A DNA stretch of 64,000 bases from Candidatus Micrarchaeota archaeon (GCA_021851065.1 JAJZJQ010000001.1:9640-73639); one strand, 5' to 3'. Positions 27,246-31,441 are shown, numbered from the stretch's first letter. Notes: generated by a model not told the origin, from the letters alone. Numbers and translations are program-made.

Positions 27246-28652
27246 CTATAGCGAAAGGACAAGAAATGGAAGCAGTCCCAGTGCTATGGATGAGCATAGT
27301 AGCAGCATTCCGGAAACCATGACGTCAGTCGAGAGCGTACGGTACGGCTCAGTGGCTTCCGACGAGTTTATGAACATCCTCTCTATTACCCAGAAAAGCG
27401 CCGCGCCCATGAGGAATATTCCTGCAAGAGGCACTATGCCAGTCACTCCGAATGCAATTGCTGCGCCTATGAATACGAGTATGTCTGCTATGAATGCTGC
27501 AGTTAGAGGCAGGCCTATGGCCCCGAACACGCCTATTATGAACAGATAAGAGAGCCCGGCGAAGTTCTTGATCACGCCTTTTATCTTGCTGATCTCCAGG
27601 GTGCCGTATAACTCGTCAAGGGTACCTGCAACGAGAAAGAGCAGTGATATCGCAAGGCCATGGCTGAGCATGAAATATACGGCGCCTGTTGTGCCAACTG
27701 AATTTAGCGCGCTAAGGCCGACGCCTACGATGCCCATGTCAACTATGCTGGTGTATGCTATAAGCCTCTTGACATTTGATTGCACAAGGCACACTATACC
27801 AGAATATATTGCAGAGAACAGGAAAATGAGAAGCAGGTATGGTGCATAATGCGAGGCTATTGGCAGCATCAGATAGGTGAGCAGCAGCAGGTAGCCTCCG
27901 AACTTTAGCAGAACTCCTGCAAGTATCATGCTTCCTGTAGTTGGCGCCTCAGTATGAGCGTCAGGCAGCCAGGTATGCAGGGGGAAGACTGGCATCTTTA
28001 TCATGAAAGACACGATGAATAGCAGCATAACAAGCAGCTGGGTACGGGCGCTTATGCTGGCAGATGAAGCTATTATTGCGCTTATGCTAAAGGTATGGGG
28101 AACGGTGGAGCTATACAGCAGCATTATCCCTATGAGCAGCAGCAGACTTGATATTGCCGAGTATATTATGAACTTTATGCCGGCATACCTCCGGTTATAT
28201 CCGCCGTACATGAATATTATGAAGAACATCACTACTTCAGCAAGCTCCCAGAATATGTACAGTATGAAGAGGTTTGATGCGGCAAACACGCCAAGAGATG
28301 ACGCCTCTGCTATGAGGAATATGAAATTGTATATCCTCTGCCTCTCACCCATGAAGTATTTGCCGACAATAGAAGCGGCAAGGAATACAATAGAAGCCAT
28401 CAGCATCAGTACGAGCGTTGGGGCAGTCGCGTAGAGGCTGAAATCCAGGTTTAGCTGCGGAATGTAGCCAAAGCTCAGCGACAGAGAGCCGATGCCGTAT
28501 TCGTACGAAGCCGCAATCGATATCAGCGTGAGTGCAAATGTTATCGCAGAAGCCGCAAGGGCTATGGAGTGGGCGTGCTTGCTATCGATTACCAGCACCG
28601 CGGCTGCTGCTGCGAAAGGGACCAGTATGAGTGCGAGAAGTACCAGCATCAT
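27246..28652 (-). CDS. NuoM/ND4/MrpD-type antiporter-like (proton-conducting) membrane subunit, orphan
   Basis: 468 aa; FWELAEV (TM5 Glu), IKMPVFPLHTWLPDAHTEAPTTGSMILAGVLLKFGGY (TM7/TM8 Lys); ATGA overlap with the upstream AAA gene. Confidence 0.85.
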   Translation of the reverse strand: MMLVLLALILVPFAAAAAVLVIDSKHAHSIALAASAITFALTLISIAASYEYGIGSLSLSFGYIPQLNLDFSLYATAPTLVLMLMASIVFLAASIVGKYFMGERQRIYNFIFLIAEASSLGVFAASNLFILYIFWELAEVVMFFIIFMYGGYNRRYAGIKFIIYSAISSLLLLIGIMLLYSSTVPHTFSISAIIASSASISARTQLLVMLLFIVSFMIKMPVFPLHTWLPDAHTEAPTTGSMILAGVLLKFGGYLLLLTYLMLPIASHYAPYLLLIFLFSAIYSGIVCLVQSNVKRLIAYTSIVDMGIVGVGLSALNSVGTTGAVYFMLSHGLAISLLFLVAGTLDELYGTLEISKIKGVIKNFAGLSYLFIIGVFGAIGLPLTAAFIADILVFIGAAIAFGVTGIVPLAGIFLMGAALFWVIERMFINSSEATEPYRTLSTDVMVSGMLLLCSSIALGLLPFLVLSL

Positions 28653-31441
28653 CTACCACCATATAGAGAGATGAAGCTCATATAGCTTCCCATAGTATTG
28701 GATGGCGCTGAAGGCTTTATCGCATGTATTATCTCAAGCATGTCGTCCATCGTTATCCTCTTCTCCTTCGATGAGGAAAGGTCGGCCTCAAGCGCCCCCA
28801 TCTTCGCTTCCCTGCAAATGTTGGCGATATCGGCACCAGTGTACCCTTCTGTCTGTGAGGCGAGCCTCTCGAAGTCCATGTCGCCGTCAAGAGGCACCTT
28901 CTTGAGGTTCTCGCGGAATATGCTGGCCCTGTCCTGGCTTCCTGGAGGAGGCACGAATATGAATTTGTCTACCCTTCCTGGCCTTATTATCGCCGTATCA
29001 AGCATGTCTGGCCTGTTGGTTGCGCCCACCATGACTATGCCGCTTGCATCCTTCATGCCATCCAGCTCCTGCAGGAACTCGCTTGTTATCTGGATGTAGA
29101 GCTGGCCGGAGTCGCTCCTGCTGGGCAGCAGCGCATCTATCTCGTCTATGAATATTATGCATGGCGCATTCTCCCTGGCCCTGTTGAACGCCTCGCGTAT
29201 AGTCGCTAGCGCATTCTCGAACCCATTCTTGGATATCTCGGCCCCAGAGAGCGTTATGAGTTTTACGCCGTCAAGCTCGTTTGCCACTGCCCTTATTAGC
29301 ATGGTCTTTCCTGTTCCTGGAGGACCGAACAGGAGTATGCCGCGTATATCCTTTACGTCATATTTCTTCATGAGATTTGGGTGCAATATTGGTATTTCTA
29401 TGGCTTCGTAGAGTGCTTTCTTGGCCTTCTCCAGACCGACCACGTCCGATACGCGCACCGTATCCTCGTTCTCAGCGAACCTCTCAGGGTGGGCGCGGCG
29501 CTCGTAGTCCGTCTTGAACTGGTTGTACTTGTCTATGGAAGCCAGCGACGTGGATGGTTTCGTGACATTTATGACATCCAGCATGTCCTGCAGCGTTATC
29601 TTGAGAACCTTGTGCTGCCGTATCGCCTCCTCAGCAACCTGCCTTGCAGCCTCATCGCATACATTCTTTATATCTGCGCCGCTGTACCGGCTGGTGACGC
29701 CTGCCAGCTTCTGGTAATCCAGGCTGTCGTCCGCAGGGAAGCGGCCCATATGGTGCTCGAATATTTTTGCCCTTCCGGACCTGTCCGGCAGCTGCATGTA
29801 CATTATTTTATCGAATCTTCCTGGCCTCATTATGCTTTCGTCGAGAAGCTGTGGAGAGTTGGTCGAACCGACGATGACCACCCCGTCTACCCTCTGGAAC
29901 CCGTCCATCTCACTTAGCAGCGTAGTCAATACCTGCCGGCTTATGTCGCTTTCCTGTGCTTCCCGCTTGGAAGCTATGCCATCGATCTCGTCGAAGAATA
30001 GCACGGCAGGAGTGTGCTTGCGTGCTGTCTCAAAGACCTTTGATAGCGCCTGCGCACTCTCCCCCTGAAAAGGGGATATTAGCGATGATGTCTTTACGTA
30101 AAAAAATCTGGCGCGTATCTCGTTTGCTATGGCACGCATCATCAGGGTCTTTCCTGTCCCTGGAGGACCGAACATGAGTATGCCCTTGGCTGGCTTGACG
30201 TTGTAAGCTCCAGCTATCTCCCTGTGCTCTATAGGGGCAAGTATGGCCTCACGCAGCTCCTTTTTGGTCTGGTCGTAATTTGCCACATCGTCGAGGGTCT
30301 CCCTACTGCCACTTGTGATGTCCTCGAATGCCTCGCCGAACTTTCCCAGAAAGTCGCGCTTCATCACGTCAAGCGCCCTGGCTACTTCGATGTTGGAGCT
30401 TTCGAGCGCGAACACCACAATGGTTGCTAGCGGGAAACTTATCATCGACAGCAGATTTGGCTGGTAGCCGCTGAACAGGGCCATGCCGGCATACGCTGCA
30501 AGTATTACGAATCCGTATAGACTGGCCTCTGCGCCCTTGAACGCCGATCTGCTCTTTATCACGTAATTTACCATTGCAAACACGGTTATGAGCCATACGA
30601 AGAGTTGTATCAGGGTAAGCTCTAGGCTGTAGGCAACAGATGCGATAGCCATCCCAAAAGCAGCGAAGATCTGATCGGCTACATTGAAGCTGAACATCCT
30701 GCCCATAGCAGCGCCAATGCCAGGAGGAAACTGCAATGCTGTTGGAGCAGGCATGGATGGAGAGAGGTACTGAAGCGCTAAACCGGATGGGAAAGAGCTG
30801 TGGGCAATTGTTGCGTTGTATACGATTGGGGCGCTGATGCTGATTCCGGTGAGCCCTGCCAGCATTGGCACCATCAGCAGTATCACTGCGGTAGACACTA
30901 TGGATCTGCGGTAGCCTATGAAAAGCACGCCTATTATGAAGACAGGTATCTCTAGCAGAGAGCCCAGATACGACAATGGCAGCATTATCATTACATATAT
31001 GAATGTTATTGTACGGTAGTGCCTGTATCCAAGTATCAGGGATATGCTGATGAACAGCGTGAAGATCCAGGCGAACAGGGGAGCCTGGTAGATGAACATT
31101 AGCAGGGTCTCAAACAGCATTGCCATTAGCCCGCCTAGTGGCAGCACAAGCGTTATTACGAATGTCACTATTACAAGGGGTATGAGTACTATTGGAGGGA
31201 AGAGGGGGAATGCTATGGCCACGCTTATGATGGCAAAGGCTATTGCAAGAGCGTCGGGGAAGTTCTTGCGGCTGGAGAAATCCTTCAGCAGGTCTTTTGC
31301 TATGAAGTAGAACATGGGCAGGTATGACGCACGGCTGTGCACAGGCTGGCTGCCACCCACAGGCCTCTTGAATGAAACTTCAGATTTGCCATCCACAACT
31401 TGTTTCTTCTGGGTGTGCTTGTAGGCCATAGGCAGTATCAC
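28649..31441 (-). CDS. polytopic-membrane tandem AAA+ ATPase (CDC48/VAT-like D1-D2 with the N domain replaced by a ~370-aa multi-TM domain)
   Basis: Two Walker A GPPGTGKT; Walker B LFFDEID and IIFIDEID; SRH GSTNSPQLLDESIMRPGRFD and GATNRPDMLDTAIIRPGRVD; N-terminal third almost entirely hydrophobic; start is GTG 31441 or ATG 31429. Confidence 0.85.
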   Translation of the reverse strand: MILPMAYKHTQKKQVVDGKSEVSFKRPVGGSQPVHSRASYLPMFYFIAKDLLKDFSSRKNFPDALAIAFAIISVAIAFPLFPPIVLIPLVIVTFVITLVLPLGGLMAMLFETLLMFIYQAPLFAWIFTLFISISLILGYRHYRTITFIYVMIMLPLSYLGSLLEIPVFIIGVLFIGYRRSIVSTAVILLMVPMLAGLTGISISAPIVYNATIAHSSFPSGLALQYLSPSMPAPTALQFPPGIGAAMGRMFSFNVADQIFAAFGMAIASVAYSLELTLIQLFVWLITVFAMVNYVIKSRSAFKGAEASLYGFVILAAYAGMALFSGYQPNLLSMISFPLATIVVFALESSNIEVARALDVMKRDFLGKFGEAFEDITSGSRETLDDVANYDQTKKELREAILAPIEHREIAGAYNVKPAKGILMFGPPGTGKTLMMRAIANEIRARFFYVKTSSLISPFQGESAQALSKVFETARKHTPAVLFFDEIDGIASKREAQESDISRQVLTTLLSEMDGFQRVDGVVIVGSTNSPQLLDESIMRPGRFDKIMYMQLPDRSGRAKIFEHHMGRFPADDSLDYQKLAGVTSRYSGADIKNVCDEAARQVAEEAIRQHKVLKITLQDMLDVINVTKPSTSLASIDKYNQFKTDYERRAHPERFAENEDTVRVSDVVGLEKAKKALYEAIEIPILHPNLMKKYDVKDIRGILLFGPPGTGKTMLIRAVANELDGVKLITLSGAEISKNGFENALATIREAFNRARENAPCIIFIDEIDALLPSRSDSGQLYIQITSEFLQELDGMKDASGIVMVGATNRPDMLDTAIIRPGRVDKFIFVPPPGSQDRASIFRENLKKVPLDGDMDFERLASQTEGYTGADIANICREAKMGALEADLSSSKEKRITMDDMLEIIHAIKPSAPSNTMGSYMSFISLYGGR

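What the first reader, a model, noticed from the sequence alone, without database searches (positions are those of the whole stretch)
28649..31441. Tandem-AAA+ (CDC48/VAT-like) ATPase whose N domain is replaced by a ~370-aa polytopic membrane domain
SEEN: the first ~370 residues are almost entirely hydrophobic. By eye I count roughly 8-10 TM-length segments. Two complete classic-clade AAA modules follow:
- Walker A GPPGTGKT, twice
- Walker B LFFDEID and IIFIDEID
- second-region-of-homology GSTNSPQLLDESIMRPGRFD and GATNRPDMLDTAIIRPGRVD
There is no protease, KH or other soluble N-terminal domain.

ESTABLISHED: type-II AAA unfoldases (CDC48/p97/VAT) use a soluble N domain for substrate and adaptor binding. 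The known membrane AAA FtsH has one AAA module, two TM helices and a protease domain. The membrane-bound AAA proteins described in Sulfolobus carry, as far as I recall, a single AAA module.

INFERENCE: a D1-D2 hexamer sitting directly on a large integral-membrane platform suggests one of three roles: a membrane-protein extractase, a translocon-associated motor, or an ATP-driven gating device. I know of no characterised equivalent.
Basis: partly seen in the sequence, partly recalled or inferred. Interest (0 to 1): 0.8.

Follow-up and report, generated by a model that had tools for sequence, protein, structure and literature searches.

The report
Membrane-embedded double-ring AAA ATPase, Micrarchaeota-specific
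This gene encodes a protein found only in the tiny symbiotic archaea called Micrarchaeota that joins a roughly ten-helix membrane domain of no known family to two protein-unfolding ATPase modules; nobody has characterised this architecture, and it most likely pulls proteins out of the cell membrane.

Summary
Window 28649-31441 (-) is one intact ORF of 930 aa, with a likely ATG start at 31429 (926 aa). It has a basic tail, a hydrophobic domain of about 10 helices (residues ~42-352) with no Pfam, NCBIfam, PDB or Atlas relative, a conserved linker helix, and two complete classic AAA modules.

It is not an assembly artefact:
- The same ~890-980-aa frame occurs in 158 of 201 Micrarchaeota genomes (78 of 102 genera).
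- It occurs in no other phylum among 36,145 genera.
- No stand-alone N-domain turned up.

"CDC48 with its N domain swapped" is only loosely right:
- The protein scores 466 bits on the CDC48 model (cut-off 803).
- It lacks CDC48_N and CDC48_2.
- It lacks the HbYX tail that the canonical Cdc48 of the same genome carries.
- Both of its modules align to the D2 half of the CDC48 profile.

Best reading: a membrane-integral hexameric unfoldase or dislocase, with the conserved D1 pore loop facing the membrane domain.

Gene neighbourhood gives two lineage-limited links. In the window's order the neighbour is a NuoM-like gene. In about ten other families the S-layer gene follows directly. Neither link is obligatory across the phylum. 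The function remains untested.

The parts
28649..31441 (-). Whole ORF of the membrane-embedded tandem AAA ATPase (930 aa from GTG 31441; likely true start ATG 31429, 926 aa; stop TGA 28649-28651)
   Evidence: P0004 (926 aa, 100% identical over the N domain)
31319..31441 (-). N-terminal basic, poorly conserved, disordered cytoplasmic tail (residues 1-41)
   Evidence: pLDDT <50 for residues 1-38; 7 K/R; mean conservation 0.28
30386..31318 (-). Orphan polytopic membrane domain, 9-10 TM helices plus a ~60-residue variable loop predicted to be extracytoplasmic (residues 42-352)
   Evidence: no family or fold match
30287..30385 (-). Conserved amphipathic linker helix between TM10 and D1 (residues 353-385; motif KFG-x-FG..DL across the family), flexible in the full-length model
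29480..30286 (-). AAA module D1 (residues 386-654): Walker A GPPGTGKT, Walker B DEID, sensor-1 N, Arg fingers, pore loop 1 (SPFQGES here; S-x-W-Y-G-E-S in most families), Vps4_C-like C-terminal helix
28652..29479 (-). AAA module D2 (residues 655-930): intact Walker A and B, sensor-1 and Arg fingers, non-canonical pore loop (K-N-G-F-E), conserved C-terminal Y..F...[YH]-G-x-[RK] tail without HbYX
27246..28652 (-). Downstream co-directional NuoM/Mrp-type Proton_antipo_M gene (468 aa). Its ATG overlaps the AAA stop codon (ATGA), so it is probably co-transcribed. The linkage holds only in the window's order.
31513..31622 (+). Intron-containing tRNA gene on the opposite strand. It separates the AAA gene from the upstream V-ATPase subunit I gene, so the AAA gene has its own promoter region.

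Best explanation
The gene encodes a membrane-integral, probably hexameric, double-ring classic-clade AAA+ unfoldase that is specific to the phylum Micrarchaeota.

Anatomy. Each subunit has about ten TM helices, N-in/C-in. A conserved ~35-residue linker tethers these to D1, so the entry face of the D1 ring lies just under the membrane domains.

Proposed mechanism. ATP hydrolysis in D1 and D2 drives the conserved aromatic D1 pore loop to grip a cytoplasmically exposed segment of a membrane or secretory protein. The polypeptide is then pulled out of the bilayer, or out of a jammed translocon, into the cytosol. This makes it a dislocase/extractase, working like the AAA ring of FtsH, like Msp1, or like Cdc48 at the ERAD retrotranslocon, but without a fused protease and without a proteasome-docking tail. 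The membrane domain would serve as anchor and as substrate-recruiting or lateral-entry platform. Candidate substrates are cell-envelope proteins, because in about ten families the S-layer gene cluster follows the gene directly.

Shown: the architecture, intact catalytic motifs, the conservation pattern, the phyletic distribution and the synteny.

Inferred: the hexamer, the topology, the direction of threading and the substrates.
For: - Two complete AAA modules. Walker A Lys, Walker B Glu, sensor-1 Asn and both SRH Arg are invariant in 43 homologues.
- The AAA part aligns colinearly with p97 and VAT at E ~1e-107 to 1e-110 and is 35% identical to the genome's own Cdc48.
- The D1 pore loop keeps an aromatic residue in 39 of 43 close homologues. 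It is a canonical W/Y-Y-G-E-S in nearly all distant families. The D2 loop is degenerate.
- The membrane domain is N-terminal, so by the established polarity of N-anchored AAA proteins and of Cdc48/VAT (substrate enters at D1) the entry pore faces the membrane.
- The membrane domain is confidently folded (pLDDT 88). The best-conserved loops are mostly those predicted to be cytoplasmic, plus the short YQAPL and FPLFP turns and the linker. That fits coupling to the ring rather than a passive anchor.
- The protein is retained as a single-copy full-length frame in 158 of 201 Micrarchaeota genomes.
- Some homologues carry inteins inside D1, as is typical of conserved, important ATPase sites.
- No protein with an FtsH-type M41 protease domain fused to AAA was seen among the genome's AAA hits (PF01434 was not searched directly).
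- The S-layer gene cluster lies directly downstream on the same strand in 10 of 26 sampled loci. In the census it lies within 3 kb in 15 of 27 lowest-band carriers, against 0 at random places.
Against: - There is no experimental or expression evidence.
- No protease or adaptor partner is conserved across the family.
- The genome already has a membrane LonB and a canonical HbYX-bearing Cdc48 plus a 20S proteasome, so a quality-control role would be partly redundant.
- The C-terminus is not HbYX.
- The D2 pore loop is non-canonical.
- The membrane domain evolves much faster than the AAA part: 16-25% against 41-48% identity in distant families.
- Families f9, f10 and f14 lack the gene in the genomes searched yet keep the S-layer protein.
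- Both synteny links are lineage-limited.
Confidence: 0.45

Rival explanations
1. A cell-envelope (S-layer) biogenesis or remodelling motor. The hexameric membrane machine assists insertion, anchoring, turnover or local opening of the S-layer lattice or of its ~700-aa membrane-anchored partner. This would be a dedicated role rather than general quality control.
For: - In families f3, f4, f5, f6, f7, f13, f15, f18, f23 and f24 the gene is followed on the same strand, 220-650 bp away, by an 820-930-aa signal-peptide protein that matches PF05124 S_layer_C. Next comes a ~700-aa signal-peptide protein with 2 TM segments (coordinates).
- Census: 15 of 27 lowest-band carriers have this neighbour, against 0 at random places.
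- The predicted extracytoplasmic loop and the membrane domain evolve fast, as do S-layer proteins.
Against: - Linkage is 0/21, 0/12 and 0/18 in the other likeness bands.
- It is missing from the window's own genome, where the S-layer homologue lies on other contigs.
- The S-layer protein is found in 182 of 201 genomes, including families without the AAA gene (f9 6/6, f10 10/10, f14 3/4).
- Conserved gene order among related lineages may be inherited rather than functional.
Confidence: 0.2
2. An export or host-interaction translocation motor. The rings push protein or other cargo outward through a conduit formed by the 60 TM helices, serving the episymbiotic lifestyle.
For: - The family is confined to an episymbiotic DPANN phylum.
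- The membrane domain is large and novel.
- Cryo-ET papers describe intercellular connections in Micrarchaeota-host pairs (PMC11329633). They name no such protein.
Against: - Known Cdc48/VAT-type and N-anchored AAA rings thread substrates from the N-terminal (D1) face away from the anchor, that is, into the cytosol.
- The canonical pore loop is in D1, not D2.
- No secretion-system genes are conserved nearby.
- In ARM-1 the nanotubes were assigned to the host.
Confidence: 0.1
3. A membrane-tethered proteasome activator that feeds extracted proteins directly into the 20S proteasome.
For: - 20S alpha and beta genes are present, one of them in the same window.
- No PAN-like single-AAA protein was seen among the genome's AAA hits.
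- The C-terminal tail is conserved.
Against: - The tail ends [YH]-G-x-[RK] or Y-G-E-R-[KR], with Tyr at position -4 or -5. That is not the penultimate Tyr of HbYX.
- The canonical Cdc48 of six Micrarchaeota genomes ends M-Y-R, M-Y-G or M-F-G.
Confidence: 0.07
4. An AAA-energised uptake device. The last six TM helices are an ECF S-component-like substrate-binding bundle that the rings topple or gate, to import a vitamin, lipid or metabolite taken from the host.
For: VIA-align's ten best rows are almost all ECF S-components (ThiT 3rlb_A: Z 8.4, rmsd 3.7 A, 149 residues aligned over model residues 134-358).
Against: - Z 7-8 lies within the tool's stated noise range for helical bundles.
- Foldseek finds nothing below E 0.79.
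- There is no sequence signal.
- No AAA+-driven solute importer is known.
- The conserved threading pore loop argues for a polypeptide substrate.
Confidence: 0.05
5. A dedicated assembly or maintenance factor for the complex I / Mrp-type antiporter-like subunit encoded next to it.
For: - In the window and in L013 the NuoM-like gene overlaps the AAA stop codon.
- Related loci keep a Proton_antipo_M gene or the nuo operon within 2 kb.
- Census: 9/18 and 3/12 in the two top likeness bands, against fewer than 3 at random places.
Against: - The census gives 0/21 and 0/27 in the lower bands.
- The AAA gene is common in families in which NuoD was rarely or never found: f3 8/14 against 1/14, f8 30/37 against 6/37, f12 6/8 against 0/8, f13 3/3 against 0/3, f15 3/3 against 0/3.
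Confidence: 0.03

Closest known systems
CDC48 / p97 / VAT (type II classic-clade AAA unfoldases; NCBIfam TIGR01243)
   Same: Two tandem classic AAA modules, each with an AAA_lid_3. The best whole-protein family hit is CDC48. The AAA part aligns colinearly with p97 and VAT (E ~1e-110) and is 35% identical to the genome's own Cdc48.
   Different: No CDC48_N or CDC48_2 domains; a ~10-TM domain sits in their place. The score of 466 bits is below the 803-bit cut-off. Both modules resemble the D2 half of the profile. There is no HbYX tail. The canonical pore loop is in D1 only.
FtsH (membrane AAA protease of bacteria and organelles)
   Same: An N-terminal membrane anchor with the AAA ring beneath the membrane. 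It is the likely functional analogue for extracting membrane proteins.
   Different: FtsH has one AAA module, two TM helices and a fused M41 zinc protease. This protein has two AAA modules, ~10 TM helices and no protease. Its FtsH model score of 393 is below the 600 cut-off.
Msp1/ATAD1 and Bcs1 (single-ring, single-TM membrane AAA dislocase and translocase), from my own knowledge
   Same: N-terminally anchored classic-clade AAA rings that move proteins out of or across a membrane. A Vps4_C-like C-terminal helix follows D1 (27.2 bits, cut-off 21.3), as in the meiotic clade.
   Different: They have a single AAA module and a single TM helix, and they are eukaryotic and organellar. The CdvC/Vps4 model score of 347 is below the 650 cut-off.
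Membrane-bound AAA proteins of Sulfolobus (MBA/SAMBA) and archaeal LonB, from my own knowledge
   Same: Archaeal AAA or AAA+ proteins anchored in the cytoplasmic membrane.
   Different: As I recall them, the Sulfolobus proteins have one AAA module and a small anchor. LonB has one AAA+ module with an inserted TM hairpin and a Lon protease domain, and it is encoded separately in this genome.
Hrd1/Derlin-Cdc48 ERAD retrotranslocation system of eukaryotes, from my own knowledge
   Same: A polytopic membrane component working with a double-ring AAA unfoldase to pull proteins out of a membrane.
   Different: In ERAD the two are separate proteins linked by ubiquitin and adaptors. Here they form one polypeptide, and no homology of the membrane domain to Hrd1 or Derlin was detected (HRD1 row Z 5.5, which is noise).

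Membership tests
CDC48/VAT/p97 family (TIGR01243) | N-terminal double-psi barrel plus beta-clam substrate/adaptor domain (Pfam CDC48_N, CDC48_2) | tested here: not met
   No hit in residues 1-400. The control Cdc48 of the same genome has both domains.
CDC48/VAT/p97 family (TIGR01243) | Whole-protein score above the curated cut-off of the family model | tested here: not met
   465.6 bits against a cut-off of 802.65. The control Cdc48 scores 1001 bits.
CDC48/VAT/p97 family (TIGR01243) | Two classic AAA modules with intact Walker A and B, sensor-1 and SRH arginine fingers | tested here: met
   (K427, E481, N524, R535, R538 and K708, E763, N805, R816, R819 are invariant in 43 sequences).
CDC48/VAT/p97 family (TIGR01243) | The first module is a D1-type module orthologous to Cdc48 D1 | tested here: inconclusive
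   TM-D1 aligns to profile positions 453-731 (the D2 half), whereas control Cdc48 D1 aligns to 169-444. The ML tree groups Cdc48 D1 with Cdc48 D2 (SH-aLRT 96). The AU test does not reject a TM-D1 plus Cdc48-D1 clade (p 0.23).
CDC48/VAT/p97 family (TIGR01243) | C-terminal HbYX proteasome-docking motif (archaeal members) | tested here: not met
   The tail is [YH]-G-x-[RK] or Y-G-E-R-[KR]. Canonical Micrarchaeota Cdc48 proteins end M-Y-R, M-Y-G or M-F-G.
CDC48/VAT/p97 family (TIGR01243) | Hexameric ring with ATP-dependent unfoldase activity | not testable with these tools
   Needs purified protein. The monomer model shows only that the domains fold.
FtsH (TIGR01241) | A single AAA module fused to an M41 zinc-metalloprotease domain, with two TM helices | tested here: not met
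   No peptidase domain among the 25 best Pfam families shown of 44. There are two AAA modules and ~10 TM helices. The model score is 393 against a cut-off of 600.
Vps4/CdvC-type (meiotic clade) AAA | A single AAA module with a MIT or other N-domain, and a C-terminal helix packing on the neighbouring subunit | tested here: not met
   The CdvC model scores 347 against a cut-off of 650, and there are two modules. Only the Vps4_C-like helix after D1 is present (27.2 bits), together with a similar Y..F...Y-G/E-x-R motif at the end of both modules.
ECF-transporter S-component fold (for TM5-TM10) | A six-helix bundle superposable on solved S-components clearly above background | tested here: inconclusive
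   Z 7-8.4, rmsd 3.7-4.7 A over 140-157 residues. This is within the noise range the tool states for helical bundles. Foldseek's best E is 0.79.

The most novel reading that the evidence does not exclude
The protein defines a new class of AAA+ membrane machine. Six ~10-TM domains would form a 60-helix membrane assembly that is mechanically coupled to a double AAA ring. The assembly would act as a one-polypeptide retrotranslocon, or as an envelope-remodelling motor dedicated to the S-layer/cell-envelope system of an episymbiotic archaeal phylum. It would be an archaeal, ubiquitin-independent counterpart of the ERAD Hrd1/Derlin-Cdc48 machinery, with a membrane fold not seen before.
Probability: 0.2. 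Interest if true: 0.85.

Novelty: new variant of a known kind. Interest (0 to 1): 0.62.

Why it matters
Membrane-anchored AAA unfoldases known so far (FtsH, Msp1, Bcs1, LonB) have one ATPase ring and a minimal anchor. Double-ring Cdc48-type machines reach membranes only through separate adaptors.

A double-ring classic AAA fused to a large, conserved, orphan polytopic domain would be the first single-polypeptide version of such a machine. It is a core gene of Micrarchaeota: 122 of 152 high-quality genomes carry it. These are genome-reduced symbionts that discard most non-essential genes, so it probably does something important at their membrane or envelope. The membrane and envelope are where host interaction takes place.

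The protein is also a tractable target for cryo-EM and substrate trapping. Such work could show how archaea, which lack FtsH, remove proteins from membranes.

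Tried and rejected
- Fusion or frameshift artefact: rejected. 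There are 82 clusters of ~900-970 aa. All 26 sampled loci hold a full-length gene. 158 of 201 genomes carry it. Short database hits are contig-end fragments or frameshifted long-read assemblies.
- Stand-alone N-domain: none found among 1.84 billion representatives.
- Relatives of the N-domain: none found by any route.
  - Pfam and NCBIfam on the protein and on all 43 members.
  - PDB profile search.
  - Foldseek against PDB.
  - ESM Atlas.
  - Internal-repeat test by hhalign.
- Complex prediction of three copies of the membrane domain: no verdict. This is not evidence either way.
- Expression: no RNA holder listed among the sequencing runs. Only DNA runs from mine-drainage metagenomes hold the sequence.
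- Complex I-specific role: rejected by phyletic mismatch.
- Obligatory S-layer dependence: not supported.
- Small unannotated genes downstream in different loci: not homologous to one another.
- Origin of the tandem modules: the AU tests reject none of three groupings (p 0.23-0.34). The tree lacks PAN, FtsH and CdvC references.
- Literature: five full-text searches found no description of this protein. Four papers were opened.

Full report
**The object.** Window 28649-31441 (minus strand) is a single open frame of 930 codons from a GTG. The database representative P0004 starts four codons later at an ATG (31429) and is 100% identical over the N-terminal domain, so 926 aa is the likely product.

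Pfam finds two PF00004 AAA domains (residues 421-550 and from ~702), each with an AAA_lid_3. Neither Pfam nor NCBIfam finds anything in residues 1-400.

Kyte-Doolittle analysis shows uninterrupted hydrophobic segments from residue 60 to 350. The first ~55 residues are basic and hydrophilic.

**The gene is real and conserved.** A word-indexed search restricted to the N-domain found 82 clusters. Nearly all are 890-970 aa with the same architecture, and where named they come from Micrarchaeota MAGs (two NCBI records are labelled Marsarchaeota) as "AAA family ATPase".

An exhaustive HMMER scan of 1.84 billion representatives with the N-domain alone gave only 37 hits. The complete ones are 887-933 aa with two AAA domains. 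The short ones are contig-end fragments or frameshifted pieces of long-read assemblies.

- A census of one genome from each of 36,145 genera found 84 carriers, all in Micrarchaeota, class Micrarchaeia.
- Within the phylum the domain is present in 158 of 201 genomes. That is 122 of 152 high-quality genomes and 78 of 102 genera.
- It is almost always single copy, in an open frame of ~890-980 codons.
- It was not found in families f9, f10 and f14.
- All 26 loci I fetched hold a full-length gene.
- Near-identical DNA occurs in four mine-drainage metagenome runs.

A fusion artefact is excluded.

**The membrane domain.** AlphaFold2 on a 43-sequence alignment gives a confident all-helical bundle (pLDDT 88.3, pTM 0.83). 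There are helices at 57-73, 79-95, 97-115, 117-152, 156-171 and 173-194. A ~60-residue loop with short helices follows, and then helices at 269-292, 298-320 and 326-344. An amphipathic helix at 352-371 completes the domain.

- DSSP merges TM4 and TM5, so the count is 9-10.
- With ten helices and the N-terminus inside, every Lys/Arg but one falls in a cytoplasmic loop.
- This fits the positive-inside rule and the need for the AAA modules to be cytoplasmic.

Conservation is highest in most of the predicted cytoplasmic loops (GYKHYRT, G-x-KR, KSRS-x-YKG), in the YQAPL and FPLFP turns, and in the linker. It is lowest in the N-tail, the short TM9-TM10 loop, several TM helices and the large outer loop. 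Across the whole phylum the motifs FPFYP, YQ-x-P, GS[KR][KR]S and KFG-x-FG..DL persist.

Nothing known resembles the domain:
- Foldseek against PDB gives a best E of 0.79.
- The PDB profile search gives no hit.
- The ESM Atlas gives no usable hit.
- There is no internal repeat.
- VIA-align ranks ECF S-components first (Z up to 8.4 over residues ~134-358), but that is within the tool's stated noise for helical bundles. I treat it as a lead only.

In the full-length monomer model the domains are individually confident. The linker (359-374) and the D1-D2 connector (649-656) are not (pTM 0.42).

**The ATPase part.** Walker A Lys, Walker B Glu, sensor-1 Asn and both SRH Arg are invariant in both modules in 43 sequences. 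The AAA part aligns colinearly with p97 and VAT (E 1e-107 to 1e-110) and is 35% identical to the canonical Cdc48 of the same genome.

That canonical protein is 722 aa with CDC48_N, CDC48_2 and two AAA modules, and scores 1001 bits on TIGR01243. The membrane protein is therefore an additional paralogue and not a replacement.

It is not a plain Cdc48 with a swapped N domain:
- It scores 466 bits against a cut-off of 803.
- Scanned separately, both of its modules align to the D2 half (positions ~449-733) of the CDC48 profile. This holds for a distant homologue as well. The control Cdc48 D1 aligns to positions 169-444.
- D1 and D2 are 38% identical to each other over 268 residues with two gaps. 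The match includes a shared C-terminal helix motif, Y..F...Y-G/E-x-R. Pfam sees this helix after D1 as Vps4_C.
- An ML tree of 49 modules resolves four clans. It joins Cdc48 D1 with Cdc48 D2 (SH-aLRT 96).
- AU tests reject none of the alternatives (p 0.23-0.34). The origin of the tandem stays open.

Pore loop 1 of D1 keeps an aromatic residue in 39 of 43 close homologues (S-P-[YF]-x-G-E-S). It is a canonical S-x-[WY]-Y-G-E-S in nearly all distant families. The D2 loop (K-x-G-x-E) is not canonical.

The C-terminus is a conserved [YH]-G-x-[RK] or Y-G-E-R-[KR]. The canonical Cdc48 proteins of six Micrarchaeota genomes end in the HbYX-type M-Y-R, M-Y-G or M-F-G.

**Genome context.**
- *In the window.* An intron-containing tRNA on the opposite strand (31513-31622) separates the gene from the upstream V-ATPase subunit I gene. 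AT-rich TATA-like boxes precede the ATG. The stop codon overlaps the start of a NuoM-type Proton_antipo_M gene (ATGA).
- *The NuoM link.* It recurs in relatives in several arrangements. In the census it reads 9/18 and 3/12 in the two top likeness bands but 0/21 and 0/27 in the lower ones, with fewer than 3 at random places. The AAA gene is common in families in which NuoD was rarely or never found (f3 8/14 against 1/14, f8 30/37 against 6/37, f12 6/8 against 0/8). A complex I-specific role is rejected.
- *The S-layer link.* Clustering the neighbours of 26 loci showed a different conserved array in the distant families. The AAA gene is followed on the same strand by an 820-930-aa signal-peptide protein matching PF05124 S_layer_C (35-63 bits, above the cut-off). 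Next come a ~700-aa signal-peptide protein with two TM segments and a ~155-aa relative of it. GT4 and GH57 genes often lie upstream.
- *How far it extends.* In the census this neighbour lies within 3 kb in 15 of 27 lowest-band carriers and 0 of the other 51, with 0 at random places. Coordinates extend the adjacency to about ten families. The S-layer protein is nearly universal (182 of 201 genomes), and it is present in the families without the AAA gene. In the window's own genome it lies on other contigs.

The S-layer link is therefore suggestive, lineage-limited and not obligatory.

**Other components in this genome.** The genome encodes 20S proteasome alpha and beta subunits and a LonB-type membrane protease. 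It also has a TPR-AAA protein. No PAN or FtsH was seen among its AAA hits. It is a 1.13-Mb assembly estimated 87.5% complete.

**Mechanism.** I favour a membrane-integral hexameric dislocase/unfoldase (confidence about 0.45).
- The anchor is N-terminal and the conserved canonical pore loop is in D1.
- By the established polarity of FtsH, Msp1 and Cdc48/VAT, the entry pore then faces the membrane domains, and substrates would be pulled from the membrane into the cytosol.
- The well-conserved cytoplasmic loops and linker argue that the membrane domain is coupled to the ring and is not a passive anchor.
- Retention in most genomes of a reduced-genome phylum argues that the protein matters. So do the inteins inserted in D1 in some homologues (1400-aa and 1950-aa variants).
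- Shown: the anatomy and the distribution. Inferred: the hexamer, the threading direction and the substrates.

Rivals are listed with their evidence:
- an S-layer/envelope-dedicated motor (0.2);
- an export motor (0.1);
- a proteasome activator (0.07);
- an S-component-like uptake device (0.05);
- a complex I factor (0.03).

**Novelty.** Five full-text searches and the papers I opened give no description of this protein. It is a new architectural variant of a known kind of machine, the membrane-anchored AAA unfoldase. It carries an orphan membrane fold and is confined to one phylum.

Noticed in passing
window 31513-31622 (+): An intron-containing tRNA gene (Rfam tRNA 55.9 bits, with a 41-nt unaligned stretch at the anticodon loop, about 38 nt of it insert) sits between the V-ATPase subunit I gene and the AAA gene. 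ARAGORN did not report it.
   Followed up: partly
L034:3007-7209 (+), L035:2809-7014 (+), L036:631-6483 (-): Homologues of 1400, 1401 and 1950 aa carry one or two inteins (Intein_splicing plus a LAGLIDADG_3 homing endonuclease) inserted in the D1 AAA module shortly after Walker A.
   Followed up: partly
L037:9999-15367 (+) and the equivalent stretches of L038-L042, L048-L050 and L054: A conserved Micrarchaeota envelope cluster lies downstream of the AAA gene. It comprises an S_layer_C protein (820-930 aa), a ~700-aa signal-peptide protein with two TM segments and no Pfam family, and a ~155-aa relative of that protein. GT4 glycosyltransferase and GH57 genes often lie upstream.
   Followed up: partly
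L001:382-2550 (-), L067-L071: The canonical Cdc48 proteins of six Micrarchaeota genomes end in HbYX-type tripeptides (M-Y-R, M-Y-G, M-F-G). No PAN was seen in the window's genome. This suggests a Cdc48-20S proteasome, as in Thermoplasma.
   Followed up: partly
L005:1045-2544 (-) (own genome, contig C17): A 499-aa protein combines N-terminal TPR repeats with a single classic AAA module. It falls below every NCBIfam cut-off (best is FtsH_fam at 188 bits).
   Followed up: no
window 24469-26292 (+) and 26303-27244 (+): A DUF2070 membrane protein (607 aa) and a 313-aa protein with no Pfam family lie convergent to the NuoM-like gene. The same trio plus a UPP synthase gene is kept in L013.
   Followed up: no
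window 40563-44042 (-): A 1159-aa ORF has only weak beta-propeller hits (Lactonase and WD40-like). It lies next to an FttA/aCPSF1-type KH plus beta-CASP nuclease gene (44114-46054).
   Followed up: no
own genome contigs C1:55-1593 and C8:534-1451: The S-layer protein homologue of the window's genome is split across two contig ends. The assembly apparently breaks inside this gene.
   Followed up: no
L021/L022 (GCA_021803245.1) and protein P0026: NCBI labels these MAGs Candidatus Marsarchaeota. The genus census found carriers of this domain only in Micrarchaeota, so the labels may be mis-assignments.
   Followed up: no
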